The notes under the pieces: generated by a model
Database searches by the model: none
What the model was told of the DNA's origin: nothing
Seen by the model: the letters and a program-made list of their open reading frames with translations, nothing else
Translations under genes and position numbers: made by a program
Part shown: piece by piece, positions 1,375 through 13,044 of the stretch
Layout of the letters: every line of letters begins with the position of its first letter
How positions within the stretch are numbered: position 1 is the stretch's first letter
IMG/VR virus record: IMGVR_UViG_3300036985_006199
Location: 1 to 57,972 of that record
Reading direction: 5' to 3' (one strand)
Source: a virus
Lineage: Duplodnaviria > Caudoviricetes
DNA: 57,972 nt

Positions 1375-3741
1375 ATGGACATGAACGGAATCGACCTACT
1401 GGTTATCGCGGAGCGTTTGCGGGCGGCGGCTGCCGCGTTGGCGAAGGTTTGCGACGGCGCGAAGAAGCGGGACGACGTGGGGTTTTCCGCGTCGGATACC
1501 TCTTACGGGCGGGCCATCGCGGGCACCCCTGCGGACCAGTGGACCCGGCAGGACTGCATCGCGGTATCGGCTTTGCTGGGCCACTACCGGGGCCAGTTGA
1601 CGGCCTACGGGGTGGACTGGGCGGGGCTGCCCAACGTCACCGAGCAGGTGAACCGGGAGGCGTCCTTCAAGGCGTTCAAGGAGCGGGCCACGGAGGCGGC
1701 GCGTCAGCAACAGCGGATGGACTACGTGGACGGGCGCATTACGCGCGAGCAGGTGCGCGTGGTGGCCCCCTACCTGGCGTGGGTCGAGAAGCGCACGGTC
1801 TGCATCGAGAGCCCGCGCGACGAGGCGCTCATCGCGGCGATCAAGGCGTGCCCGAACGGGCGGCGCTGGAACGGGCTGGCGCGACGCTGGGAGGCGGAAC
1901 TGAGCCCGGCGAACGCCAAGGCGCTCCTGGCGATCTTCTCGCGGTTCAACTTCCTCGTGAGTGGCGCGGACCAGGCGATATTGGCGCAGGCGCAGGTTGC
2001 GACGGCTGCTGCGACGGTAGAACGTCCCAAGGCGGATCATGTGGTCATCGAGGGCGACCGGATCGTGTTGCGCACCCCGTACAACCAAGAGGCCACGGCG
2101 GCGCTCAAGGATGCGCTTCCAGGGCGACGTTGGGATGCAGCGAATAAGGTCTGGACGGCACCCTGTACGGCGGAGGCGGCGCGGGCTGTCCAGGCACTGG
2201 CCGAGCGGTGGGGCTGGCGTCTGGGGGCGGCTGCGGCGCGGCTGGCGGAGATCCGGGCGGAGGCTGAAACCTTCCGTGCGGCGAGCAAGGCGGCGGATGC
2301 AGAGTTGGAGTTGCGTGGGCTTCGAGATGGCGCGGTTCCGTACTCCTACCAGAAGGCGGGCGTTGCCTACGCCGTTGCAAAACGTCGCGTGCTGATCGCC
2401 GACGAGATGGGAATCGGGAAATCATTGCAGGCACTTATGACGGTCGTGCAACTGGACGCCTATCCGGCGTTGGTCGTTGCGCCCAAGGCTGTCTTGCGGC
2501 AATGGACACGTGAGGTTGGCAAGTTCCTCGAAGGTCGCACGGCGAGCATCGTTGGGCTCAAGGGGAACGCCAAGAGGCTGGCGCGGCATGGGTTGACGGC
2601 GGGCTTGTGCGGGGACTTCGTTATCGTCAATTACGACATTCTCGGGCGCAATCTGGAGGCGTTTAAGGCGCATGGGTTCAAAGCGCTCATCGTCGACGAG
2701 TCACATTTTATCAAAAACAAGAAGGCGGCGCGCAGCCAGGCAGTCAAGGACATGGCCAAGCAGCAGGGGTTGCAGGCGGTTCTGCTGCTCACGGGAACGC
2801 CGGTTTTGAATCGACCTGTTGAGTTGACACATCAGTTGGACGTACTTGGGCAGCTCCAGGGGTTCGGTGGGTTCATGACGTTTGCGAAGCGCTACGCGAA
2901 CGCCAAGGAAACCAAGTTCGGATGGGACATGACTGGGGCCAGCAACTTGGACGAACTTAATCGTCTCCTTCGCGAGCGCTGCATGGTTCGGCGCGAGAAG
3001 AAAGACGTGTTGGCGGACTTGCCAGCGATGCAGAGAACGGTCGTCCCGGTCGAGGTCGATGATCCAAAGGCGTATGAGCAGGCCATGAACGACATCGTGC
3101 GTTGGATGGCGGGCCAGCGTGGAGAGCTGCCCAGCGAGTCGGCGTACCGGGCGGAGATGCTGGTTCGGATCGAGGGGCTGCGGCAGTTGGCGGTTGCGGC
3201 GAAGTACGCGGCCACACGCGAGTGGCTGGCCAACTGGCTGGACACGGCGGAGGGAGAGAAGCTGGTTGTATTCGCGCATCACAGGGACGCCCAGGAGAAG
3301 CTTAAGGCCGATCTCGCCGACTACGGCGCGGTGTCGATCAGCGGCGGGGACAGCGACGACAACAGGGACGCGGCGGTCAAGCGGTTCTGGAACGACCCGA
3401 CTTGTCGCGTGATCGTCTGCTCGATCAAGGCGGCGTCGGTTGGACTCAACTTGCAATGCGCGAGCAACGTGGCGTTCGTCGAGTTTGCTTGGCACGCGGC
3501 AGACATGGACCAGGCGGAGGCGCGCTGCCACCGAATTGGCGTCCAAGGCGCGGTTACAGCCTACTGGATAGCTGGCGAGGACACTTTTGACGAGGACATG
3601 ATTGCGCTGATCGAGAGTAAGCGCGAGGTTGCCCACGCAGCGGTTAGCGGAGGCGAGATCGAGAAGCAGGCGAACGTCGTTGCCTGGTTTGAGAAGCTGA
3701 TCGAACGCAAGCGGACCAAGGAGGCGTGGGAGGGCAACTGA
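1375..3741 (+). CDS. SNF2-family (HARP/SMARCAL1-like) helicase/annealing ATPase
   Basis: Motifs YQ, ADEMGIGKS (Walker A), DESH (DExH), LTGTP, GLNLQ, QAEARCHRIG; two N-terminal HARP-like repeats (RRWNGLARRW, RRWDAANKVW). Confidence 0.9.
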   Translation: MDMNGIDLLVIAERLRAAAAALAKVCDGAKKRDDVGFSASDTSYGRAIAGTPADQWTRQDCIAVSALLGHYRGQLTAYGVDWAGLPNVTEQVNREASFKAFKERATEAARQQQRMDYVDGRITREQVRVVAPYLAWVEKRTVCIESPRDEALIAAIKACPNGRRWNGLARRWEAELSPANAKALLAIFSRFNFLVSGADQAILAQAQVATAAATVERPKADHVVIEGDRIVLRTPYNQEATAALKDALPGRRWDAANKVWTAPCTAEAARAVQALAERWGWRLGAAAARLAEIRAEAETFRAASKAADAELELRGLRDGAVPYSYQKAGVAYAVAKRRVLIADEMGIGKSLQALMTVVQLDAYPALVVAPKAVLRQWTREVGKFLEGRTASIVGLKGNAKRLARHGLTAGLCGDFVIVNYDILGRNLEAFKAHGFKALIVDESHFIKNKKAARSQAVKDMAKQQGLQAVLLLTGTPVLNRPVELTHQLDVLGQLQGFGGFMTFAKRYANAKETKFGWDMTGASNLDELNRLLRERCMVRREKKDVLADLPAMQRTVVPVEVDDPKAYEQAMNDIVRWMAGQRGELPSESAYRAEMLVRIEGLRQLAVAAKYAATREWLANWLDTAEGEKLVVFAHHRDAQEKLKADLADYGAVSISGGDSDDNRDAAVKRFWNDPTCRVIVCSIKAASVGLNLQCASNVAFVEFAWHAADMDQAEARCHRIGVQGAVTAYWIAGEDTFDEDMIALIESKREVAHAAVSGGEIEKQANVVAWFEKLIERKRTKEAWEGN

Positions 3742-3839: not shown

Positions 3840-4661
3840 ATGGCGAAGGAAGAGAAGTCGGGTGTGACCACGAAGTTCAAACCGTTCCTGGACATCAAGT
3901 ACCTGCGAGTGAGAATCCAGGGGTACGATCCGCTGATCGTGCATGCCTGGTCGAAGAAGGCGGTCTTGGAACTCCTGGGCAAGTCGATGAAGATCCCCAA
4001 GGGGGCGCGCGAGGAAAAGAACGCTGAGCAGGAGATGGAGGACGCCAAATACTACGACCGGGACGGCAACGAGGCCATTTTGGCGACGGCGGTCAAGAAG
4101 GCCATGATCTCGGCGATCAGCATGGTGAGCGACCTGAAGAAGACGCACATGCGACAGGCGTTCTTCGTCTGGGGTACAGTGGACAAGGAGCGCTCCGCGA
4201 TTTTGAATGCAGAAGACGGAACGCCCATGAAGGGCTTGATGCGCTTGGACCCCGTGCGGGTGGGAGGGCAGAAGGGGGCGAAGTCGGCGGACATCCGCTT
4301 TCGCCCGGAGTACCCGGAGTGGGCGGTGGACGTCGTGATTGAGTACAACGCGCTGGGGATTTCCAAAGAGCAGATCGTCAACTTGATCAACACGGCTGGA
4401 TACGGCGTGGGCATCTTCGAGTGGCGCCCGGAGAAGGATGGGACGTACGGGCGTTTCGAGGTGGCTGACGTTGAGGATCTGCCGGAGAAGCCGAAGTGGA
4501 CCAAGGCGTCGGGCTACCTGCGCAAGGGCGAGATGGACGCCAAGTCGGTGCTTGAGGCGTTGCAGATCCAGAAGGCCGTGGCTGCGAATGAGATGCTGAA
4601 GAAGAAGAGCAAGAAAAAGAAGGGCAAGAAGGCGGAAGACGTCGAGGAGGACGAGGCATAG
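3840..4661 (+). CDS. stand-alone Cas7/RAMP-like RNA-binding protein (Vipr-like)
   Basis: RAMP-like order of motifs: strand YLRVRIQGYDPLIVH, helix ILATAVKKAMISA, RFRPEYPEWAVDVVIEY, and a C-terminal glycine-rich loop AGYGVGIFEWRPEKDGTYGRFEV; basic/acidic tail; no other cas genes in the window. Confidence 0.7.
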   Translation: MAKEEKSGVTTKFKPFLDIKYLRVRIQGYDPLIVHAWSKKAVLELLGKSMKIPKGAREEKNAEQEMEDAKYYDRDGNEAILATAVKKAMISAISMVSDLKKTHMRQAFFVWGTVDKERSAILNAEDGTPMKGLMRLDPVRVGGQKGAKSADIRFRPEYPEWAVDVVIEYNALGISKEQIVNLINTAGYGVGIFEWRPEKDGTYGRFEVADVEDLPEKPKWTKASGYLRKGEMDAKSVLEALQIQKAVAANEMLKKKSKKKKGKKAEDVEEDEA

Positions 4662-4723
4662 GCCCGCGCCCTTCTTTCAACGGGCTTGGATCGCTACTCC
4701 TGGGAGGGCGGCGATCTGGGCCA

Positions 4724-5671
4724 GGCATGGCAGGAGAGGAATGGCAAGTTTTGGCGAGAATTGGCGGGGCATGGTTCGGCAGGAACGGCTGGGACTGGAT
4801 GGGTGAGGAGCGGCATGGTGCGGAAAGGCAGGAGAGGACTGGCAAGAATGGCGAGAATTGGCGGGGCCTGGCTCGGCAGGATCGGCTGGTCTTGGTATAG
4901 TTCGGTTGGGCGAGGCAACGTGAGGCAGGCAAGGAGGGGCTGGGTTCGGCCCGGTAAGGTTGGGCTGGCAGGGGCAGCGTGAGGCAGGCTTGGCATGGAT
5001 GGATTCGGCATGGGCGGAGAGGTCTGGAAGGGCAGGACTGGAGGGGCAAGGTCTGGACTGGCCAGTCTAGGTGCGGCCTGGCAGGAATGGCGGGGCTCGG
5101 TTCGGACGGATGTGCTTGGCAGGCGCGGCGAGGATGGGCTTGGCGCGGTCTGGTGACGTGTGGTTTGGCAAGGCAGGAGAGGTTGGTTCTGGAGTGGCTC
5201 GGCACGGCGTTGTACGACATGGCAAGGCAGGAGAGGTGAGGCAAGGCGCGGTAGGGACCGGCATGGTGTGGACGGGCACGGCAGGAACGGCTTGTCGGGG
5301 TTCGGTACGGTAGGGTGCGGCGAGGCTCGGATCGGCTGGAACGGCACGGTACGGTTGCGCAGGGACCGGAGCGGACGGGCAGGAAAGGCAAGGCGTGTTG
5401 AGGTCGGGACGGGCCTGGCGCGGATCGGCAGGCGGGGTTAGGACTGGCGGGGCTAGGTGAGTCCTGGATCGGATCGGCAGGTTGGGAGTGGGATGGATTG
5501 GCTTGTTGAGGCCGGGCTGGCGAGGCCAGGTGGGGCACGGTGGGAATGGGTTGGGCCTGTCAGGGCCGGTATGGCGGAGCATGGCGGCGCAGTCCGGGGC
5601 TGGGCAGGTCACGCCAAGGCAGGCGTGGCAAGGTCTGGCGGGGGGCCGCTCGGCATGGAACGGGACGGCGG
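4724..5671 (+). repeat. GGH-NN pentamer array in ~20 units (mostly GGCA + 7-11 pentamers); putative guide RNA array
   Basis: Units start at 4729, 4778, 4827, 4875, 4924, 4983, 5031, 5080, 5118, 5172, 5226, 5280, 5334, 5378, 5427, 5476, 5515, 5564, 5603, 5618; e.g. 5226 ggca ggaga ggtga ggcaa ggcgc ggtag ggacc ggcat ggtgt ggacg ggcac. Confidence 0.9.
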
Positions 5672-5710
5672 GTTCTCCGAAAATGGACCCGCAGAAAGGA
5701 TCTACAGCAC

Positions 5711-6172
5711 ATGAGAAGAAAATACCGGATCTGGGTCACCGTACAGTGGTTGACGCATGAAGAGGCGTGCGACACGTGCGGCGTGGAGTTCCTCGATCAA
5801 TGGGCCTTTGAAGACACCAACATCTACCCCCTCAGCACGGACGAGAACGGGGGCGACCCCCCGGATACCGATCCGCTCTGGGCGATGTCCTGCCACTGCG
5901 ATCATGACCTGCACGATGACACGTCCATGGAAGAGTTCTGTCGCGGGTTGGCCCATCACGTGTGGGCGATGACGGGTCGATGGGTGCCCGTCCTCATCCA
6001 GTGGTGCCGCATCGCCCCGGTGGACACCCTCTCGTTCGACCATGCAGACTTCGACGCGTTCGCGACCGAGGTGCATTCGGACCTGTTCCCATCCCGTGCC
6101 GAGGCGGTCGACGCCCTCGTCCAGTCCAGCCTCATCCTCCCCTCGGATGGATCCCCCAGCGGTTCCGCCTAG
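5711..6172 (+). CDS. hypothetical acidic His/Cys-rich protein
   Basis: ATG at 5711 after AAAGGA; the upstream part of ORF 5540 lies in the repeat array. Confidence 0.6.
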   Translation: MRRKYRIWVTVQWLTHEEACDTCGVEFLDQWAFEDTNIYPLSTDENGGDPPDTDPLWAMSCHCDHDLHDDTSMEEFCRGLAHHVWAMTGRWVPVLIQWCRIAPVDTLSFDHADFDAFATEVHSDLFPSRAEAVDALVQSSLILPSDGSPSGSA

Positions 6173-6262: not shown

Positions 6263-7069
6263 TTGCCCGATGACCCGTATTCCGATGCACCTGTGCGCAA
6301 AGGTGTCACCCCCTGGTGCCCCATGAGCCGGGGGAACCCCTTCGAGAAAATCAAGAAGCTGCGCTGCCACCAGGAGGTCTACGAGCGTCTCTGCGCGGGC
6401 TATCCCTGCCCCGAGGTGGCCCGCTACATCCAGGAGGACGAGGGGGAATACCTCGACGTGGGGCGGCCCTCGCTGGTCGGCATGCTCCGGGACTACACCG
6501 AAAGCGAGATCGTGGGCGTCGACCTGATCGCACCAAGGCTCCCGCACGTTGTGGTCAAGGCGCAGAAGGAGTTCAGCGACCGGCTGGAAGACTTGCGCCG
6601 TCTGGAACGCGCCTACGAGGCGTTGCTGTACCGCTTCGACCTGTCCCATGGTGAAGAGCGTCGCAACGGCAAGGTCAATCCCGATGTAGACCGGCAGGCC
6701 AAGGTCTTGATGGATTACATCTCCAAGATGCACGACGTTAAGATGGATCTGGGGCTCACCGGATCTCGCGACTTGGGCACGCTGACGGTGAGTGCGGAGC
6801 GGTTGGCCGCGATCAAGGACAAGTATGGCGAGGGCGCGGCGCGGGCCTTTGGCGATCCGGTTTCCAGGGCCAAGGTCTTGGGTCTGTTGAGGCGCGTGAT
6901 GAAGATCTCGGAGCGCGGAGATGTCCTGGAGTCAGACCTGGAAGAGGCGAACCTGGGTTCGCGTGACGATTCCGAACAATACCCGGAAGCTATAGAGGCC
7001 GAATTTTCTGAGGCGACCACCCCGAAACCCGCATTAGGACCGACCGAAGAAGATTCGGAAGAGCGATGA
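6263..7069 (+). CDS. putative terminase small subunit
   Basis: Helical protein directly upstream of, and ATGA-coupled to, the large terminase; start uncertain (6263 TTG or 6323 ATG). Confidence 0.45.
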   Translation: MPDDPYSDAPVRKGVTPWCPMSRGNPFEKIKKLRCHQEVYERLCAGYPCPEVARYIQEDEGEYLDVGRPSLVGMLRDYTESEIVGVDLIAPRLPHVVVKAQKEFSDRLEDLRRLERAYEALLYRFDLSHGEERRNGKVNPDVDRQAKVLMDYISKMHDVKMDLGLTGSRDLGTLTVSAERLAAIKDKYGEGAARAFGDPVSRAKVLGLLRRVMKISERGDVLESDLEEANLGSRDDSEQYPEAIEAEFSEATTPKPALGPTEEDSEER

Positions 7070-10000
7070 TCGTCACCGCCTCCAACGGGCGTCGTCGGAG
7101 CGTCAGGACGGGCGGAGAGGACATCCGCGCCTTCAAGGAGGGGTACGCGCTGTGTACGCCCGAGGAGCGGTCTCTGATCCAGGCGCTACTGAACGAGGGT
7201 GATCCGAATTCGGCGGCGGTGTTGAGTGTGGAGCTGAACGAGTCCCTGTACCGTCGCCCATTGGTATCCATGCAGCAGTTCATTGAAGATCCCTACTACC
7301 TGGGTGACTCCATGGGGACGATGTACCCGGCGCTCAAGAAGGACGTTATCGCCCTATTTGAAGCTCCATACAGGGAAGTGGTGCTGTGCCTGCATCCAGA
7401 CACGCCGATACCGCTCTTGAATGGGATGATGCCGACGCTGCGTTCGTTGGCGGAGAAGTGGGCGCAGGACAAACAGGACTTCTGGATATATGGAGTCAAT
7501 CCAGATGGACATGTTCGTCCTGCGTTGGCCACTGAACCGCGTTGCACAGGGGAGGACGACTATTATCGAGTGACGCTAGATGACGGGTCGTTCTTTGTAT
7601 CCAACGCTCGGCACAGGATGGTGATGCGAGACGGAGGCAAGCGGCAGGTTATGGACATGGTGGCTGGCGACAGTCTGATGCCATTCCAGACAGTCATGTC
7701 CACCAAGGGACGCGGAAGGCGCATCGCTGGATATGAGATGGTCATGGATTTTGTCGACGAAGAAATGCGGTATACGCATGCTCTTGTAGCGGACCATGTG
7801 CATGGATCGGTCGATCCGTCCAAGGTGACGATCCACCATGTTGACTTCGACAAACGGAATAACGAACCAGACAACTTGTCCCTCATGCCATGGAGTGATC
7901 ACCAGCTTTTGCATGCGCGGACGCGCAGAGAATGGCTTGCCGTCGATTCGGAGAGTCGGACTGCGCTAGCTGAACGCCAGCGGGCCATATGCAAAGATCC
8001 ACATTCTCCACTGAGGATGGCCCATGCTGAATTTATGGCGTCTCCAGAAGGCAGGGCACTTTCTGCAAATAATTTGGCGAAGGCCATTATCACCATAGAT
8101 GACAGGCGCGAGAGAGGTGGCAGGGCTTCTGTTTGTCGTTGGAATGGGCCTGATGGAGAAGAGCATAGGGCCGCTGCTTCAGAGCGAATGCGTGTTCGGA
8201 ATTTGTCTGGCAATGCGGCGGAGGCAGGTCGGCTGTCGTTTTCTAATCGTTCACCAGAGGCTCAAGAACGCCAGCGTCAACGGGCATTATTGAATTCGAT
8301 GAGGCAGCGTCGTGATGACGTGAATCCATCCACTATACGAGAGGCTATTGATAGCGGGTCGTCCACGTTCAAAGCTGTGGCAAAGAAGCTTGGTTGCTCT
8401 CCATGGCGCGTTCGTTGTGCGATTGTGGAAGCAGGCTTGTCGCTCCGAGAGTTCTTCCCTCGCACGCGAAATCATTATGTTGTGTCCGTGGAGCCGTGTG
8501 GAAGAGGCCCCGTATACTGCATGACGGTTCCTGACACTGAGAACTTCGCAATAGCAACGAGGCGACCAGATGGGACCGTTGCGCGATCTGGTGTTTTCTC
8601 CAGCAACACCGGAAGTATCGGATCGGGCAAAACTTTCCTGGCGAGTGCGGCCATTTGCCGCATTTTGTACGAGCTGTCGTGCATGAAGAATCCCCAGTTG
8701 ACGTTTGGGATGTCGCCCGGCACCGAGATGGTGATCATGCTGATCTCCAAGAACCTCGTGTTGGCGCGGGAGGTGATGAAAACGAGCATTGATGACAAGA
8801 TCAAGCTGAGCCCGTACTTCATGCAGCACTTCACGCCTAAATTCTCGACAGACTACACCTTGTTTCCCAATAGCATCCGCATGAACATTGGGTCATATGG
8901 TGCTGAGCGCGCCCTTGGAGCGAATATTTTTTCAGCTTTTCTGGATGAGTGTTTAGGCAAGAAAAGCTTGTTAAGCATTGGTGAACATGGTAAAAGCGCA
9001 CAGTTTCCCGTTGGCGATCTGTGGGCAATGGGGCCTGCGGGGCGCGACGGGTTGCTGGTTGAAGCGCTGGACCATGCGACGGGTCAGCAGACGTGGACGC
9101 CGTTTAGGATGCGGCTGTCCACGGTGCAACCGTTGGTACGGATCGAGACGAACCTGGGTTCGTGTGTGCGGGCTATTGAACCGTCTCGGGAGCACCCCTT
9201 GCTGGTGCGGCGCGATGAATGGCTGATCTACGTCCCGGCGCGAGAGATTGTGGTTGGGGACGAGGTCGTCTGGAGGCGCGACGATGGCGAAGAAGGGCGA
9301 GACGTTGAGCGAGGAGCAGCGACAGAAGTTGTCGGAGGCCGCGAAGCAGCGGACAGGGGAACGCAATCCATTCTGGGGGAAGACGCACAGCGAGGAGACC
9401 AAGGCGCTGTATGCAGAGAATGCGCGGCAGCAGTGGACGGGGGTCAAGCAGAGCGAGGAGACAAAGGCCAAGCGGTCGGCTGCGTTAAAGGGGCGCGTGA
9501 TGTCAGCGGAGACGCGAGCCAAGATGGCGGCATCGGCCAAGGCGCGCTGCACGCCGGAGTGGCGGGCGCGGATGTCGGCGCAGACCACGGCGGATCGAGC
9601 GAGCGGGCGTGTGACGAACATGCCCCCTGTGTATCCGGCAGGGCCAGATCATCCGAACCGTGGACAGAAGCGGACGGAGGAACAGCGGCAGCGGATGCGC
9701 GAAGCGTTCCAGGATCGCCCTGGACATGCGCACAACGAGGAATCGCGGGGCAAGATCTCGGAGGGGAATGCGCAGGCGATCAAAGATCGAGTGCGGTCCT
9801 ACCGCTACCATGTGTCGTCGCCGGATGGAGGCTTGGTGCCTTGCCGGACGGAGAACGAGAGGCACCTGGCTCAACGGCTGTGCATGGAAAGCGGTGTGGT
9901 GCGCATTGTAGGCGAAGATCAGATGGAGTGGATGCCTTACGAGTTGGATGGAAAGAAAAGGATGACGATTGGCGACTTCTTAGTGATAAGGAGCGATGGC

Positions 10001-13000
10001 GTGCAAGTATTAGTGGAGGGGAAAGATTCGGCACATCTTTATCGAGACAGGGAACGTGCGCGCTTGGAAGCAGAATGGAAGTGGTGCCAGAAAAATGGGC
10101 ACTTGATGATCCTTGCGGTGAACGATCAGCGCATTCCGAGTGTATGGACGGGACCGTTTGTGACGGAGGAGTTCATGGAGAGCGTGCGGAAACATCGCGT
10201 GCGCTTTCGCACCATGTTGACGGTAGAACCCTCGGAGGCTGTCGCTCCGAGTGCTTGCGAGTCACCGACCTGTCCGACGCCTACCAGCTCGTCCGAGTAA
10301 CGGCCACGCGGGATCTTCCAGCCGAACAGACCTACAGCATAGAGACGGACTGCCAGACCTTCGTGGCGGACGGTTGCGTGGTCCACAACACGAACTTCCC
10401 TCCGAAGCGGAGTGCACAGCAGATCAATCAGACGTTTGGCAAACAGCTCACGGCGGCTAATTTCGACATCGTGGAGAAGGTCTACCGATCCATGGTGCGG
10501 CGGATCAAGTCGCGCTTCCAGACGGCAGGCGGCGACTTCCCGGGCATGGTCATCATGGTGTCGTCGGCGGCGACGTTGGACAGCTTCACCGAGCGTAAGA
10601 TTCGGGAGGCGCGTCAGGATCCAACGGTGTTTGTGCGGGATCATACGGCGTGGACATCGAAGCCCATGGACCACTTCTGTGGTAAGTGGTTCTACGTGCT
10701 GTGCTCGAAGTCCAGCCTCCGCTCGCGCATCCTCGAAGACGGGGAGTACGATGAGATCTCGCCTGAGTACCTTGAGGAAAACAATGCTTGGCTGATCGAG
10801 GTGCCGGTAGAATACAAGGAGGACTTCGAGAGCAACCTGGAAGACTCGTTGCGCGACATCGCGGGTGTTTCGACGCAGGCGATTTCGGCGTTCTTCCAGC
10901 GTGTGGATGCAATCGAGGCGTGCATTGTGCCGGGACGCAAGCATCCATTCTCTAGTGAGGTCTGGGTCTCTGGCTCACCGGCTACGTTCGATTGGGACTA
11001 TCTGTGCCGCCGGATCGAGCGGCGACTGCCTGGAGGGTTTACCGAGACCGCGTGGGCTCCAAAGGAGTCTCCTTCGAGTCCGCGTTGGATTCACATTGAC
11101 ACGTCAATCAGTGGAGATAGCACGGGATTTTGTTGTGGGCGTATAGACAGGTGGGTCGAGGTCGTGCGGCGGGATGGGGAGGGGCACGCCTATACCGATA
11201 CCGCACCATATTATGTCATTGAGGTGCTGCTTAGTATTAGACCGCCGTCGGGCGACCAGATCTACATGCCGGATCTGCGACGTCTTGTGTACGAGTTGCA
11301 GGCGCATGGCTTCCCAATCCACGGGTTTTCCAGTGACTCTTTTCAGTACGTCGAGATGCATCAACAGATCAGGCGGCACGGCATCCATACCGAGCTGATC
11401 TCCATGGATCGCACCATTGATCCTTACGAGGAGCTGAAGTCGGCTATTTACGAGAAGCGCATCGAATTCTACGAGTACACGAACCTGCTTCAGGAGTTGC
11501 GATCTTTGGAATATGATCGCGTGAAGGGTAAAATTGACCATCCTAGACATTCGAGTAAAGATTGCATCTCTGGGGACACCAGGATTTCCTTGCTGAACGG
11601 TAGTGAGGTCATGATCCGGGATCTCGTTGGGCAGGAATTCTGGGTGTACGCCTGCACACCGAACGGTACGGTGGTTCCAGCCCACGCTCATAATGTACAT
11701 CTGGTTGGAGACCGGGACGTGATGCGAATTTGGCTCGACAACGGGTCGCATTTGGATTGCACTCCAGACCATGAGATCATGATGCGCGATGGCGAGTTCC
11801 GGGAAGCTAAGTCCATATCGGTTGGAGATAGCCTCATGCCGTTGTATCGGGATGTTTCCGTGGCAAATCCAAAGCATGGTCTGGATGGGTATGAGAGAGT
11901 TCTTGATAACAAGACCGGACGGTATGTTTTTACGCACCAGTTGGTCGCCAATACGGTTGGTGGATTTGCATATGCGGGGAATAGGAAAGAGCGCCGAATC
12001 ATTCATCATGCCGATTTTAATAAGAGAAATAACGATCCGGCCAACCTTGTTCCCATGGAGTGGCATGAACATCTGCGCGTGCATCGAACCGTAGCGTCTC
12101 AGAATATGAAACGGCTGTGGGAGGATGACGAGTATCGGAAGAAGGCATGTCTACGCAGTGGGAAGATCGGAAGGGTAACCGGGCCGATCAACATGACACG
12201 GTACAACAGGTCTCAGGAACGCATCGAGAAACTTCAGGCCAAGGGGACATTCGCGGCAAATGGAAAGAAGGTCATGCAGCAGTTGTGGGCGGACCCTGAA
12301 TATCGACGCCGACATCGTCAGCGCGTGTCTGGATCTGGCAACCATTGGGCGAGGAAAGATGTGACGATGGATCGCATATTGACCGTTGCTGCGAGCGTCA
12401 CGAGCCAGGTTGATCTGTTGCGAGAGTTACGGTGTACCCAGAAGGTATTGGCGCGAGTCTTGTTGGAGAACGGGATGTCTTGCCGGGACTTGGCGGTGAA
12501 ATTTGGTCATCATCGCCATCGTGGCAGCGCGGCTTATCAGTTTCGACATGACGTTACATTTGACCGTGTTCTGGAGACTGCGAAGACGGTGTCCACCGTC
12601 CAGGAACTGTGCGCTACCATGAAATGTACTCCAAAGGTGTATCACCGCGTGATCCAATCACAGGGATGGACAGCAGCGAAATTCAAGGGCGCACATTTCA
12701 AAAAGTCGCAGACTAACCATCAGGTGGTGCGCGTGGAAATGCTTGGGGCGGTCCCTGTGTATGATATGACGGTGGACGTTCATCATAACTTCGCCATCTC
12801 CGCTGGCATGTTTGTCCACAACTGCTCTGATGCCCTGGCCGGGACGATCTGGGGACTGCGGCAACAGGCCGCTCGCTTGCCGTGGGCTGCTGATGCTGAT
12901 ACACCAAGAGTAGCGGTCGGTCATGATCATGGCTGGGTGAGCGACATGATCCCAGCCGAGGACGTGGATCTGGACGAGGTACGCGCGGCACGCTCGGCTC

Positions 13001-13044
13001 AGTCTGCCCACGTTCTGATGCCCTTCTTCATAGGAGATGACTGA
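7066..13044 (+). CDS. terL: terminase large subunit precursor with three inteins (mature ~685 aa)
   Basis: Spliced exteins give VVL|TGSIGSGKT (Walker A), FLDE|T (Walker B), IHIDTSISGDSTG and KIDHPRHSSKD|CSDA (RNase H-like nuclease). Confidence 0.92.
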   Translation: MIVTASNGRRRSVRTGGEDIRAFKEGYALCTPEERSLIQALLNEGDPNSAAVLSVELNESLYRRPLVSMQQFIEDPYYLGDSMGTMYPALKKDVIALFEAPYREVVLCLHPDTPIPLLNGMMPTLRSLAEKWAQDKQDFWIYGVNPDGHVRPALATEPRCTGEDDYYRVTLDDGSFFVSNARHRMVMRDGGKRQVMDMVAGDSLMPFQTVMSTKGRGRRIAGYEMVMDFVDEEMRYTHALVADHVHGSVDPSKVTIHHVDFDKRNNEPDNLSLMPWSDHQLLHARTRREWLAVDSESRTALAERQRAICKDPHSPLRMAHAEFMASPEGRALSANNLAKAIITIDDRRERGGRASVCRWNGPDGEEHRAAASERMRVRNLSGNAAEAGRLSFSNRSPEAQERQRQRALLNSMRQRRDDVNPSTIREAIDSGSSTFKAVAKKLGCSPWRVRCAIVEAGLSLREFFPRTRNHYVVSVEPCGRGPVYCMTVPDTENFAIATRRPDGTVARSGVFSSNTGSIGSGKTFLASAAICRILYELSCMKNPQLTFGMSPGTEMVIMLISKNLVLAREVMKTSIDDKIKLSPYFMQHFTPKFSTDYTLFPNSIRMNIGSYGAERALGANIFSAFLDECLGKKSLLSIGEHGKSAQFPVGDLWAMGPAGRDGLLVEALDHATGQQTWTPFRMRLSTVQPLVRIETNLGSCVRAIEPSREHPLLVRRDEWLIYVPAREIVVGDEVVWRRDDGEEGRDVERGAATEVVGGREAADRGTQSILGEDAQRGDQGAVCRECAAAVDGGQAERGDKGQAVGCVKGARDVSGDASQDGGIGQGALHAGVAGADVGADHGGSSERACDEHAPCVSGRARSSEPWTEADGGTAAADARSVPGSPWTCAQRGIAGQDLGGECAGDQRSSAVLPLPCVVAGWRLGALPDGEREAPGSTAVHGKRCGAHCRRRSDGVDALRVGWKEKDDDWRLLSDKERWRASISGGERFGTSLSRQGTCALGSRMEVVPEKWALDDPCGERSAHSECMDGTVCDGGVHGERAETSRALSHHVDGRTLGGCRSECLRVTDLSDAYQLVRVTATRDLPAEQTYSIETDCQTFVADGCVVHNTNFPPKRSAQQINQTFGKQLTAANFDIVEKVYRSMVRRIKSRFQTAGGDFPGMVIMVSSAATLDSFTERKIREARQDPTVFVRDHTAWTSKPMDHFCGKWFYVLCSKSSLRSRILEDGEYDEISPEYLEENNAWLIEVPVEYKEDFESNLEDSLRDIAGVSTQAISAFFQRVDAIEACIVPGRKHPFSSEVWVSGSPATFDWDYLCRRIERRLPGGFTETAWAPKESPSSPRWIHIDTSISGDSTGFCCGRIDRWVEVVRRDGEGHAYTDTAPYYVIEVLLSIRPPSGDQIYMPDLRRLVYELQAHGFPIHGFSSDSFQYVEMHQQIRRHGIHTELISMDRTIDPYEELKSAIYEKRIEFYEYTNLLQELRSLEYDRVKGKIDHPRHSSKDCISGDTRISLLNGSEVMIRDLVGQEFWVYACTPNGTVVPAHAHNVHLVGDRDVMRIWLDNGSHLDCTPDHEIMMRDGEFREAKSISVGDSLMPLYRDVSVANPKHGLDGYERVLDNKTGRYVFTHQLVANTVGGFAYAGNRKERRIIHHADFNKRNNDPANLVPMEWHEHLRVHRTVASQNMKRLWEDDEYRKKACLRSGKIGRVTGPINMTRYNRSQERIEKLQAKGTFAANGKKVMQQLWADPEYRRRHRQRVSGSGNHWARKDVTMDRILTVAASVTSQVDLLRELRCTQKVLARVLLENGMSCRDLAVKFGHHRHRGSAAYQFRHDVTFDRVLETAKTVSTVQELCATMKCTPKVYHRVIQSQGWTAAKFKGAHFKKSQTNHQVVRVEMLGAVPVYDMTVDVHHNFAISAGMFVHNCSDALAGTIWGLRQQAARLPWAADADTPRVAVGHDHGWVSDMIPAEDVDLDEVRAARSAQSAHVLMPFFIGDD
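7387..8607 (+). mobile_element. intein 1 in TerL (407 aa, HNH endonuclease)
   Basis: Starts CLHPDT, ends GVFSSN|T; HNH motif IHHVDFDKRNNEPDNL; inserted just before Walker A. Confidence 0.88.
8950..10389 (+). mobile_element. intein 2 in TerL (480 aa) containing a nested out-of-frame endonuclease gene
   Basis: Starts CLGKKS, block B SREHPLL, ends FVADGCVVHN|T; inserted after Walker B DE. Confidence 0.85.
9284..10300 (+). CDS. NUMOD3-repeat, TnsA-like PD-(D/E)XK homing endonuclease nested in the +1 frame of intein 2
   Basis: GGAGG at 9272 then ATG 9284; NUMOD3-like repeats (NPFWGKTHSEETK, KQSEETKAKRS, HNEESRGKISE); nuclease-like MPYELDGKKRMTIGDFLV...LVEGK. Confidence 0.8.
   Translation: MAKKGETLSEEQRQKLSEAAKQRTGERNPFWGKTHSEETKALYAENARQQWTGVKQSEETKAKRSAALKGRVMSAETRAKMAASAKARCTPEWRARMSAQTTADRASGRVTNMPPVYPAGPDHPNRGQKRTEEQRQRMREAFQDRPGHAHNEESRGKISEGNAQAIKDRVRSYRYHVSSPDGGLVPCRTENERHLAQRLCMESGVVRIVGEDQMEWMPYELDGKKRMTIGDFLVIRSDGVQVLVEGKDSAHLYRDRERARLEAEWKWCQKNGHLMILAVNDQRIPSVWTGPFVTEEFMESVRKHRVRFRTMLTVEPSEAVAPSACESPTCPTPTSSSE
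11563..12822 (+). mobile_element. intein 3 in TerL (420 aa, HNH endonuclease)
   Basis: Starts CISGDT, block B CTPDH, HNH IHHADFNKRNNDPANL, ends HNFAISAGMFVHN|C. Confidence 0.9.

What the first reader, a model, noticed from the sequence alone, without database searches (positions are those of the whole stretch)
4729..5671. Second-level structure of the array: ~20 units delimited by a 4-nt phase break (GGCA|GGA)
Seen: the 5-nt register is reset by a tetramer, usually GGCA (variants GGCT at 5334 and 5515, GGCC at 5564), and the next pentamer is most often GGA-NN. Unit lengths mostly follow 4+5n: 49,49,48,49,59,48,49,38,54,54,54,54,44,49,49,39,49,39. The 3' units are more degenerate. Inference: GGCAGG(A) is a processing site or cap that releases individual guides, and the degeneracy gradient suggests polar ageing as in CRISPR arrays. 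A simple microsatellite would not keep the scaffold while diversifying NN.
Basis: partly seen in the sequence, partly recalled or inferred. Interest (0 to 1): 0.85.

Follow-up and report, generated by a model that had tools for sequence, protein, structure and literature searches.

The report
Phage VIPR guide-RNA array, staggered type
This stretch is a phage array of about twenty RNA guides for a small CRISPR-like protein encoded next to it, a kind of system (VIPR) first described in 2026 preprints, so it is a real and interesting member of a known kind.

Summary
Window 4729-5671 parses into 171 GGNNN pentamers and 22 tetramers, 13 of them GGCA. Autocorrelation peaks at 5, 49 and 54 nt. The breaks are evenly spaced: 0 of 10,000 shuffles match.

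The gene just upstream (3840-4661, +) is a Vipr protein. A profile of 83 homologues hits the solved 'SUSP1 Vipr protein' at E 5.7e-14. The model has a Cas7-like RAMP fold, and five published RNA-contact residues are kept.

A DNA-motif scan of IMG/VR, blind to the gene, gave 120 loci. 83 of them carry a Vipr homologue (25-43% identity) on the G-rich strand.

Across orthologous units GG almost never varies (2 of 140 columns), the N positions do (26 of 210), and the boundary tetramer never does (0 of 32). Relatives differ by whole units.

The 4-nt break equals a 1-nt overlap of pentamer frames. That is the 'staggered vrRNA array' the VIPR preprint shows only as a supplementary figure; its text names the other two architectures as the ones confirmed by sRNA-seq.

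Not shown: RNA ends and targets. The 'polar ageing' idea is not supported. Verdict: new member of a known kind.

The parts
3840..4661 (+). vipr gene: 273-aa RAMP (Cas7-like) protein, with a C-terminal helix and a lysine-rich tail that most homologues lack
   Evidence: phrog_4652, function unknown. Profile of 83 homologues against PDB 36pp_D 'SUSP1 Vipr protein', E 5.7e-14; single sequence E 2.2e-4 over residues 20-208. AF2 model pLDDT 87, pTM 0.80. Foldseek top hits are Cmr4, type VII Cas7 and Csm3, probability 1.00. H35, R155, E194, W195 and R196 align with SUSP1 H17, R138, D177, W178 and R179. Most of the 82 other homologues are 186-260 aa and end soon after the G-loop.
4662..4728 (+). Leader between the vipr stop codon and the first GGCA|GG boundary; it ends in ...CCAGGCATGGCAGG
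   Evidence: Read directly. Near-identical in L002, L003 and L009, and similar in L007 and L008. No convincing sigma-70 promoter here.
4729..5671 (+). vrRNA array: 193 words (171 GGHNN pentamers, 22 tetramers), about 20 units of mostly 49 or 54 nt, G-rich on the strand that also codes for vipr
   Evidence: It is the only such array in the window.
4778..4826 (+). Example of an intact unit: GGCA plus 9 pentamers. Orthologous copies exist in L002 and L003, differing at 2 N positions only
5226..5279 (+). Example of a 54-nt unit: GGCA plus 10 pentamers, all starting with GG
   Evidence: An exact 1-nt-skip scan of IMG/VR with its NN string gave 0 hits.
5476..5560 (+). 3' block conserved in all relatives compared. 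It keeps the GG period, but its boundaries are irregular (GGCC, GGTG)
6614..6639 (+). Tentative target site in the neighbouring gene (true start about 6323, end 7069; unknown family; overlaps the start of the large terminase gene). A guide carried by the related phages G003/L008 matches it 17 of 18 under the 1-nt-skip rule, in frame
   Evidence: The gene was chosen after seeing the hit, so this is suggestive only.
1375..3741 (+). SNF2-family helicase gene directly upstream of vipr, also present next to it in the close relatives; possible accessory gene, not established
   Evidence: Pfam SNF2-rel_dom 5.7e-31 and Helicase_C. Next to vipr in L002 and L004-L008, but in only 1 of the 83 distant vipr loci, L059, where it lies ~3.7 kb from vipr.

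Best explanation
The region is the guide-RNA array of a VIPR (Viral Interference Programmable Repeat) system in a large, uncultivated sediment phage.

The array is transcribed in the G-rich sense, probably together with vipr. Vipr protomers bind one pentamer each. They clamp G1 and G2, and loosely the third base, and present bases 4-5 for pairing. A run of 9-11 pentamers therefore forms one helical filament that reads double-stranded DNA as NN-x-NN-x, skipping one target base per word.

Every 49 or 54 nt a word is one base short (GG-C-A, then GG again). This puts the next GG out of step by one base. I infer that this stops one filament and starts the next, so one long transcript yields about 20 separate guides without tails, ribozymes or a Cas6-type nuclease. 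Host RNases may trim at the exposed junction.

The guides most likely silence genes of competing phages. There is a hint that related phages aim at each other's gene just downstream of the array.

Shown here: the anatomy, the homology and fold of Vipr, the linkage of gene and array, the conservation pattern, and unit-wise turnover. Taken from the literature on type II systems: the binding mode, the 1-nt-skip code and silencing. Inferred: that the phase break delimits guides, how they are cut, and what they target.
For: (1) Vipr identity. Profile hit to the solved SUSP1 Vipr at E 5.7e-14; single-sequence hit at E 2.2e-4 over nearly the full length; a confident model (pLDDT 87) whose best PDB matches are Cas7-family RAMPs. 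Residues that the cryo-EM paper names for G1, G2 and Y3 contacts (H17, R138, D177, W178, R179) align with H35, R155, E194, W195 and R196. R155 and R196 are invariant in 83 homologues.

(2) Linkage. Most hold G-rich period-5 arrays of 160-1640 nt. 83 of the 120 have a Vipr homologue at 25-43% identity next to the array. In every locus where both were found they share a strand. SNF2, the downstream gene and TerL are not linked outside the close relatives, apart from one weak SNF2 hit in L059.

(3) All 8 loci found through the protein have an array right after the gene.

(4) Scaffold against code. Orthologous units vary at G1 in 1 of 70 columns, G2 1 of 70, position 3 14 of 70, position 4 9 of 70, position 5 3 of 70, and the boundary tetramer 0 of 32. 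Position 3 varies more than positions 4-5 (p 0.025), as expected if 4-5 are held by a target.

(5) Unit structure. All 22 breaks in the window are -1. In 119 loci there are 954 tetramers against 85 hexamers, 62 heptamers and 51 trimers. Unit lengths peak at 49 (160 cases), 54 (124) and 44 (103). Guides of 8-12 words dominate, which fits the published 9-16.

(6) Whole-unit turnover. The window and L002 share 9 collinear units. Most offset changes are of unit size (+49, -54, -59); two (+11, -38) are not. Several junctions sit at GGCAGG(A). A variant in one DNA run and one RNA-library run replaces 4834-4982, with one joint just after the GGCAGG at 4827 and the other at the GGCAGG at 4983.

(7) Sense of transcription. 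Strong hairpins followed by U runs sit right after the arrays of L002 (-24.4 kcal/mol, z -4.2) and L003 (-28.9 kcal/mol, z -6.3) on the G-rich strand.

Against: No RNA ends are known. The two metatranscriptome runs are assembled contigs at depth 3-7 and may contain DNA.

Position 3 is a pyrimidine in only 66% of words here (A 25%), against about 80% in the pooled loci. Several G-loop positions near the published Y3 pocket differ from SUSP1 (C173 aligns with V, G176 with F). The SUSP1 rules may therefore not transfer exactly.

There is no type II style 3' tail between units. The accessory gene found in 50 of 85 other loci (phrog_15946) is absent from the window and its close relatives.

Exact 1-nt-skip scans of IMG/VR with 4 of the window's 11 guides of 8 or more words (of about 20 units) gave 0, 0, 2 and 6 hits. 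The hits are unrelated sequences at about the number I estimate for chance. A scan of 286 guides against 1.16 Mb of fetched loci showed no excess over shuffled or wrong-skip controls.

The window's own array has no clear terminator: hairpin -14.5 kcal/mol, z -1.3, no U run.
Confidence: 0.85

Rival explanations
1. A structural or neutral satellite: a G-rich pentanucleotide minisatellite that grew by slippage and unit duplication, with GGCA inherited from a founder unit and no function.
For: Higher-order repeats can arise by duplication alone. Units 4729 and 4827 are paralogues. Rfam has no match.
Against: GG and GGCA stay fixed while the N positions diverge. The array sits at the same place in phages whose Vipr is only 63% identical. 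It is linked to one protein family in 83 of 120 loci found by DNA motif. Positions 4-5 are near maximum entropy, unlike a young satellite.
Confidence: 0.03
2. A protein-coding region: the long antisense ORFs (4387-5538, 383 aa; 4694-5347; 5067-5612) encode proline-rich repeat proteins.
For: All three minus-strand frames are open over hundreds of codons. Such ORFs from different loci match each other in BLAST.
Against: The period is 5 nt with -1 slips, which no reading frame can keep. Three overlapping frames are open at once, as expected from a C-poor, T-poor composition. There are no PHROG or Pfam hits. 83 of 87 members of the antisense ORF cluster lie mostly inside arrays, so their similarity is repeat similarity.
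Confidence: 0.01
3. A DNA-level site: a packaging (pac) site for terminase, or a G-rich R-loop or G-quadruplex replication origin, placed just upstream of the terminase genes.
For: The array lies about 1.4 kb upstream of the large terminase gene (7066-13044). GG every 5 nt could form two-tier quadruplexes, and a G-rich non-template strand favours R-loops (general knowledge, not tested).
Against: Outside the close relatives no terminase or downstream-gene homologue is adjacent in the 120 motif-found loci, while Vipr is adjacent in 83. Terminator-like hairpins directly after the arrays of L002 and L003 point to an RNA product.
Confidence: 0.04
4. A sponge RNA for a host RNA-binding protein, for example CsrA at the repeated CAGGA or a ring protein that binds triplets at 5-nt spacing as TRAP does, rather than a guide array.
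For: CAGGA recurs at 12 of 22 unit starts. That it resembles CsrB repeats, and that the 10-11 word units resemble TRAP sites, is recalled from memory and was not tested.
Against: The GGA preference is particular to this clade: in the pooled loci the third base after the break is C in 61% and A in 13%. The linked protein is a RAMP with the residues that hold GG. The host is unknown.
Confidence: 0.03
5. A CRISPR-like adaptive array with polar acquisition, in which new units enter at one end and old ones decay at the other.
For: The 3' block is shared by all relatives while 5' and middle units differ. This looks like trailer-end conservation in CRISPR arrays. The boundary tetramers of the last units are non-canonical.
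Against: No cas1- or cas2-like gene or other integrase lies at the locus. L007 and L008 differ by block rearrangements, not by end additions. GG integrity is flat along the array. Differences between the window and L002 are scattered over the array.
Confidence: 0.04

Closest known systems
VIPR systems, 'staggered vrRNA arrays' (bioRxiv 10.64898/2026.04.26.720920, legend of Fig. S18; I read the Results, Discussion, two Methods sections and text passages; figures and supplements were not viewable)
   Same: A Vipr RAMP gene next to a long array of GG-anchored pentamers. Neighbouring guides overlap by 1 nt, which is the 4-nt word seen here. There are no tails or ribozymes between guides. The system is phage-borne.
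   Different: I could not see the figure, so I cannot say whether its boundary is GGCA|GG or whether this clade is in their set of 667 NCBI-derived systems. The text says 'the latter two' of its three other architectures (ribozyme arrays and single-guide systems) were confirmed by sRNA-seq, which I read as leaving the staggered type unconfirmed. The window adds about 20 guides in one array, a 273-aa Vipr with a C-terminal helix and lysine-rich tail, and no phrog_15946-type accessory gene.
Type II VIPR of Escherichia phage SUSP1 and a Pseudomonas fulva prophage (same preprint, plus the cryo-EM preprint 10.64898/2026.04.26.720927, Results part 1 read)
   Same: A homologous protein, one protomer per pentamer, conserved GG-contact residues, and guides of 9-16 words.
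   Different: SUSP1 vrRNAs are separate ~100-nt RNAs, each ending in a conserved ~40-nt tail with a pseudoknot, and position 3 is strictly a pyrimidine. Here the units abut with only GGCA between them, and position 3 is 'not G' (A 25%).
Class 1 CRISPR-Cas backbone (Cas7, Csm3 or Cmr4 on crRNA)
   Same: The same RAMP fold, and a protein filament on a guide RNA with a periodic flipped base (as described in the preprints).
   Different: The period is 5 rather than 6. The guide code is gapped rather than a contiguous spacer. There is no repeat-spacer array, no Cas6 and no cas1/cas2. The system is carried by a phage.

Membership tests
VIPR system | Vipr protein: a minimal RAMP with RRM core, glycine-rich loop and thumb | tested here: met
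   AF2 model with pLDDT 87. Foldseek top hits are Cas7-family RAMPs at probability 1.00. The C-terminal G-loop motif G-x-G-x-x-E-W-R-P...G-x-F is conserved in the family.
VIPR system | Sequence homology to an experimentally characterised Vipr | tested here: met
   PDB 36pp_D 'SUSP1 Vipr protein': profile E 5.7e-14; single sequence E 2.2e-4 over residues 20-208 against 2-187.
VIPR system | Residues that hold G1, G2 and Y3 (SUSP1 H17, D177, R138, W178, R179) | tested here: met
   They align with H35, E194, R155, W195 and R196 (residue names). One change is conservative (D to E). Two aligned G-loop positions differ: SUSP1 C173 (named as part of the Y3 pocket) aligns with V, and G176 with F.
VIPR system | Tandem pentanucleotide repeats with conserved GG(Y) and hypervariable NN, 9-16 per guide | tested here: met
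   G 0.92/0.91 at positions 1-2; positions 4-5 at 2.0 bit; units mostly of 9-10 words. Position 3 is a pyrimidine in only 66% of words. The preprint allows NNNGG variants.
VIPR system | GG conserved and NN variable across related loci | tested here: met
   2 of 140 against 26 of 210 variable columns, p 8.6e-5.
VIPR system | Array adjacent to vipr in long intergenic DNA | tested here: met
   All 8 protein-found loci and 83 of 120 motif-found loci, always on the same strand.
VIPR system | vrRNAs expressed and bound by Vipr | not testable with these tools
   In RNA-library run X10, 5 of the 6 contigs listed (7 laid) lie on the array, at depth 3-7. Contigs cannot show ends or strand, and DNA carry-over is possible.
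VIPR system | Accessory vap gene | tested here: inconclusive
   phrog_15946 follows vipr in 50 of 85 loci but is absent from the window and 5 relatives. An SNF2 helicase sits upstream in this clade. The type definitions are in figures and supplements I could not open.
VIPR system | Natural targets that fit the 1-nt-skip rule | tested here: inconclusive
   Four exact scans gave only chance-level hits. One guide of a relative fits the window's downstream gene 17 of 18 in frame, and one window guide fits the relative's copy 15 of 18. The gene was chosen after the fact.
VIPR type II (SUSP1-like) | Each vrRNA ends in a conserved structured 3' tail of about 40 nt | tested here: not met
   Units abut with only a 4-nt word between them. 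This is therefore not type II architecture.
Staggered vrRNA array | Successive guides overlap by 1 nt, so the pentamer frame steps back by one at each border | tested here: met
   All 22 breaks in the window are tetramers. In 119 loci, 954 of 1152 breaks are tetramers.
CRISPR array | Identical repeats of 24-48 nt alternating with unique spacers, with cas1/cas2 nearby | tested here: not met
   No such repeats were found, and no cas-like adaptation genes lie in the flanks.

The most novel reading that the evidence does not exclude
The one-base-short word GGCA is itself the ruler of the system. It breaks the Vipr filament, so one transcript is divided into about 20 independent guides with no nuclease, ribozyme or tail.

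The same GGCAGG(A) junction also serves as a recombination joint through which co-infecting relatives swap whole guide cassettes, a primitive route to new specificities that needs no Cas1.

In this clade the guides are aimed at the rival's gene just upstream of the large terminase gene. The owners escape their own guides through synonymous first-position changes in Leu and Arg codons, the only synonymous changes that a wobble-skipping code can see.
Probability: 0.25. Interest if true: 0.75.

Novelty: new member of a known kind. Interest (0 to 1): 0.55.

Why it matters
VIPR is a months-old class of RNA-guided DNA recognition, proposed to be older than CRISPR.

This window and its relatives give a rich natural data set for it:
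- about 20 guides per array;
- orthologous units in several phages;
- whole-unit turnover;
- a conserved border motif.

This data set makes a concrete question testable: how does a filament-forming guide protein know where one guide ends if there is no tail? It also shows that a simple DNA motif recovers more than 120 such loci in IMG/VR, far outside the cultured hosts studied so far.

Tried and rejected
- Rfam and blastn against GenBank phages: nothing.
- Before the protein was identified I considered a pac site, an R-loop origin, a G-quadruplex array, a CsrA or TRAP-like sponge, and antisense coding. All were dropped after the linkage result and the PDB hit.
- RNA evidence. Only two RNA-library runs hold part of the stretch, as assembled contigs. 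X10 covers parts of the array and of vipr; X21 covers 5641-5933. Parts without cover mean nothing. One X10 contig ends near 5280 in what I recall to be Illumina adapter sequence. This is a single fragment end from a fragmented library and I draw nothing from it.
- Target search, local. The first 10 words of 286 guides were scanned against 1.16 Mb of fetched loci. Counts for skip 1 equal those for shuffled word order.
- Target search, public. Exact IMG/VR scans were run for the guides at 5226 and 5118 (0 hits each), 4733 (2 hits) and 4778 (6 hits). The hits have GC 0.36-0.67, share no gene family, and are about as many as I estimate for chance. Exact matching is much stricter than the 80% NN match used in the preprint, so this does not argue against targets existing.
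- Search for more relatives of the downstream gene, to make the cross-targeting test independent. This gave only 1 new viral and 5 metagenome loci. They repeat the same two orthologous sites, so independence was not gained.
- The sigma-70 and terminator consensus scan found nothing useful around the array.
Both were rerun.
Full report
**What is there.**
Window 4729-5671 is an intergenic stretch with 48.5% G. It lies between a 273-aa gene (3840-4661, +) and a 153-aa ORF (5711-6172, +), and all neighbouring genes are on the + strand. A parse anchored on GG gives 193 words: 171 pentamers and 22 tetramers, with no longer or shorter words. 13 of the tetramers are GGCA. Autocorrelation is 0.489 at lag 5 and higher still at lag 49 (0.51), with 0.49 at lag 54. 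The array therefore steps back by one base about every ten words. GGCAGG occurs 18 times here, against 33 times in the remaining ~57 kb of the same strand. The breaks are regularly placed: 12 of 21 gaps hold 8-11 pentamers, and 0 of 10,000 shuffles of word order reach that number. Positions 1-2 of the words are G in 92% and 91%. Position 3 avoids G (C .41, A .25, T .25). Positions 4-5 are close to random.

**Surroundings.**
The window is an IMG/VR virus record of 57,972 bases, estimated 31% complete. Upstream lies an SNF2-family helicase. Downstream lies a gene of unknown family whose true start is near 6323 (a relative has stop codons before that point). After it comes a 1992-aa large terminase reading frame. 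Rfam and GenBank phages gave nothing.

**The array travels with one gene.**
Searching IMG/VR with the 273-aa protein gave 8 loci at 63-96% identity. Every one has a period-5, G-rich array of 420-1060 nt directly after the gene, with the same GGCA|GG borders.

I then searched with the DNA motif GGCAGG(NNNGG)x6 alone. This motif occurs 4 times in the window and 0 times in 100 shuffles. Most hold G-rich period-5 arrays of 160-1640 nt.

tblastn with five window proteins found a homologue of the 273-aa protein, at 25-43% identity, in 83 of these 120 loci. The helicase appeared in only one of them (L059, 26% identity, ~3.7 kb from vipr), and the downstream gene and the terminase in none. Where both gene and array were detected they always share a strand. 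The usual order is gene then array, sometimes array then gene, and sometimes an array on both sides.

**The gene is a Vipr.**
The homologues end in a glycine-rich loop (G-x-G-E-W-R-P...G-x-F). A profile of 83 of them hits one solved structure, 36pp_D 'SUSP1 Vipr protein', at E 5.7e-14. The window's protein alone hits it at E 2.2e-4 over nearly its full length. The AlphaFold model is confident (pLDDT 87, pTM 0.80). Its best PDB neighbours are Cas7-family RAMPs: Cmr4, type VII Cas7 and Csm3.

**What the literature says.**
The held library contains three bioRxiv preprints of 2026 on this name.
- The first (10.64898/2026.04.26.720920) I read in its Results, Discussion, two Methods sections and text passages. 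It describes VIPR systems: a phage-borne RAMP, Vipr, plus vrRNAs made of 9-16 YNNGG repeats. GGY is the scaffold, and the NN bases pair with double-stranded DNA while skipping one target base per repeat. The result is transcriptional silencing of competing phages and satellites.
- The second (10.64898/2026.04.26.720927) I read in Results part 1. It shows one protomer per repeat and names the contact residues H17 and D177 for G1, R138 and W178 for G2, and R179 for Y3.

In the alignment these residues correspond to H35, E194, R155, W195 and R196 of the window's protein. R155 and R196 are invariant in the family.

**The second-level structure.**
In the characterised type II systems each vrRNA is a separate RNA ending in a structured tail. 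That is not the case here.

The first preprint lists three other architectures, among them 'staggered arrays with overlapping vrRNAs'. The legend of its Fig. [quoted passage not shown] A 1-nt overlap of two pentamer frames is exactly a 4-nt word. The text says that 'the latter two' of the architectures it lists (ribozyme arrays and single-guide systems) were confirmed by sRNA-seq, which I read as leaving the staggered one unconfirmed. I could not see the figure or the supplements, so I do not know whether its border is GGCA|GG or whether this clade is among their 667 systems.

In my pooled set of 119 loci the breaks are 954 tetramers, 85 hexamers, 62 heptamers and 51 trimers. 646 of the 878 tetramers scored away from array ends are GGCA. 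Unit lengths peak at 49, 54, 44, 59 and 39 nt. The share of GGCA is inflated by the search motif, which required one GGCAGG per locus. Discounting one per locus leaves about 527 of 759. In the 8 loci found through the protein the same border dominates, but those are close relatives.

I grouped equal-length units from the six arrays compared (window, L002, L003, L006, L007, L008). Variable columns are G1 1 of 70, G2 1 of 70, position 3 14 of 70, position 4 9 of 70, position 5 3 of 70, and border tetramer 0 of 32. GG against the N positions gives p 8.6e-5; position 3 against positions 4-5 gives p 0.025. This fits a scaffold held by the protein, a nearly free third base, and two bases held by a target.

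Relatives differ by whole units:
- The window and L002 (Vipr 96% identical) share nine collinear units, with other units inserted, lost or replaced between them.
- Most offset changes between these two arrays are of unit size (+49, -54, -59); two (+11, -38) are not. Several shared blocks begin exactly at GGCAGG or end at GGCAGGA.
- L007 and L008 carry the same blocks in a different order.
- One unit recurs in near-identical form (three position-3 differences) in L006, L007 and L008, although their Vipr proteins differ.
- A variant seen in one DNA run and one RNA-library run replaces 4834-4982 with 144 other letters. One joint lies just after the GGCAGG at 4827 and the other at the GGCAGG at 4983.

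**What is not supported.**
The proposed degeneracy gradient is weak: GG integrity by fifths is .84.87.87.90 and .79. The 3' ~85 nt is the most conserved part across the relatives. No adaptation genes are present. The conserved 3' end does resemble the trailer end of CRISPR arrays, but changes between relatives are scattered along the array rather than polar.

**Transcription.**
In L002 and L003 a strong hairpin followed by a U run sits right after the array on the G-rich strand (-24.4 and -28.9 kcal/mol; z -4.2 and -6.3). The window itself has only a weak hairpin without a U run.

Two metatranscriptome runs hold parts of the stretch. In X10, 5 of the 6 contigs listed (7 were laid) lie on the array. 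Because these are assembled contigs at depth 3-7, they show neither ends nor strand, and they do not exclude DNA.

**Targets.**
Four window guides were turned into exact 1-nt-skip patterns. The IMG/VR scans gave 0, 0, 2 and 6 hits, and the hits are unrelated sequences at about the number I estimate for chance. A local scan of 286 guides against 1.16 Mb showed no excess over controls.

I then fetched the whole records of three relatives (44.8, 58.4 and 168.7 kb, the last 91% complete). Each has exactly one array.
- One guide of G003/L008 (NN string TA GA GC CT CT TA CG TT GA) fits the gene downstream of the array. The match is in frame with the skipped base at the wobble position, on the peptide YEALLYRFD.
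- Its match is 17 of 18 in the window and in L154, 16 of 18 in G001 and G002, and only 15 of 18 in its own genome and in L157.
- The own copy differs by synonymous TTG (Leu) and AGA (Arg) codons.
- Conversely, the window's first guide fits G003's copy of the same gene 15 of 18, in frame, and its own copy 13 of 18.

Within that gene, 0 of 200 shuffles reach the observed 5 hits. However, the gene was chosen after seeing the first hit, and the hits reduce to two orthologous sites. Genome-wide, counts for skip 1 do not exceed those for shuffled guides. I treat this as a lead, not a finding.

**Accessory genes.**
In 50 of 85 loci a gene of about 150-170 aa (phrog_15946, function unknown) lies downstream of vipr on the same strand, usually between vipr and the array. 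An HMM built from it finds nothing in the window or in five relatives. In this clade an SNF2 helicase sits upstream instead. The window's Vipr also has about 60 extra C-terminal residues forming a helix and a lysine-rich tail. Which of the seven published types this clade belongs to cannot be settled without the figures and supplements.

**Verdict.**
The finding is real. The structure is a staggered vrRNA array of a VIPR system, so it is a new member of a kind described in 2026 preprints. Still open are the points that make this architecture interesting: where the RNAs end, what cuts them, whether the short word stops the filament, and what the guides hit.

Noticed in passing
L018:1862-2335, L023:799-1314, L015:2754-3281 (-), L016:3257-3742 and 46 other loci: A gene of about 150-170 aa (phrog_15946, function unknown; consensus motif ...SPLHxxFEWDD..AA..R..QAR...) lies downstream of vipr on the same strand in 50 of 85 loci, usually between vipr and the array. 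It may be one of the published vap genes. It is absent from the window's clade.
   Followed up: partly
window 7066-13044: The large terminase reading frame is 1992 aa, far longer than usual. Relatives match it only in separated pieces (for example 395 aa at 94% identity in L002), which suggests inteins or other insertions.
   Followed up: no
window 5711-6172: The 153-aa, Cys/His-rich ORF between the array and the next gene has no homologue in any of the 8 related loci and no family hit. This slot after the array is variable between relatives.
   Followed up: partly
L002:7753-7793 and L003:1568-1610: Strong hairpins followed by U runs lie immediately after the arrays on the G-rich strand. The consensus terminator scan missed the L002 one, whose loop is 9 nt (it was not run on L003). 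The window has no equivalent.
   Followed up: yes
window, whole length: Strong strand asymmetry outside the array as well: G 0.35-0.37 against C 0.26 on the + strand, which carries all the genes I looked at.
   Followed up: no
L006:7011, L007:7569, L008:3816: One 49-nt unit recurs in phages whose Vipr proteins are only 63-71% identical to the window's. The copies differ at only three position-3 bases. This suggests cassette exchange or strong selection for one target.
   Followed up: partly
window 6263-6322: The listed start of the gene downstream of the array (TTG at 6263) is probably wrong. A relative has stop codons in the corresponding stretch, and all orthologues begin at MSR/MSK, which is 6323 in the window.
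   Followed up: yes
window 4834-4982: Public sediment runs contain a variant of this array in which this stretch is replaced by 144 other letters. It is seen in one DNA run and one RNA-library run.
   Followed up: partly
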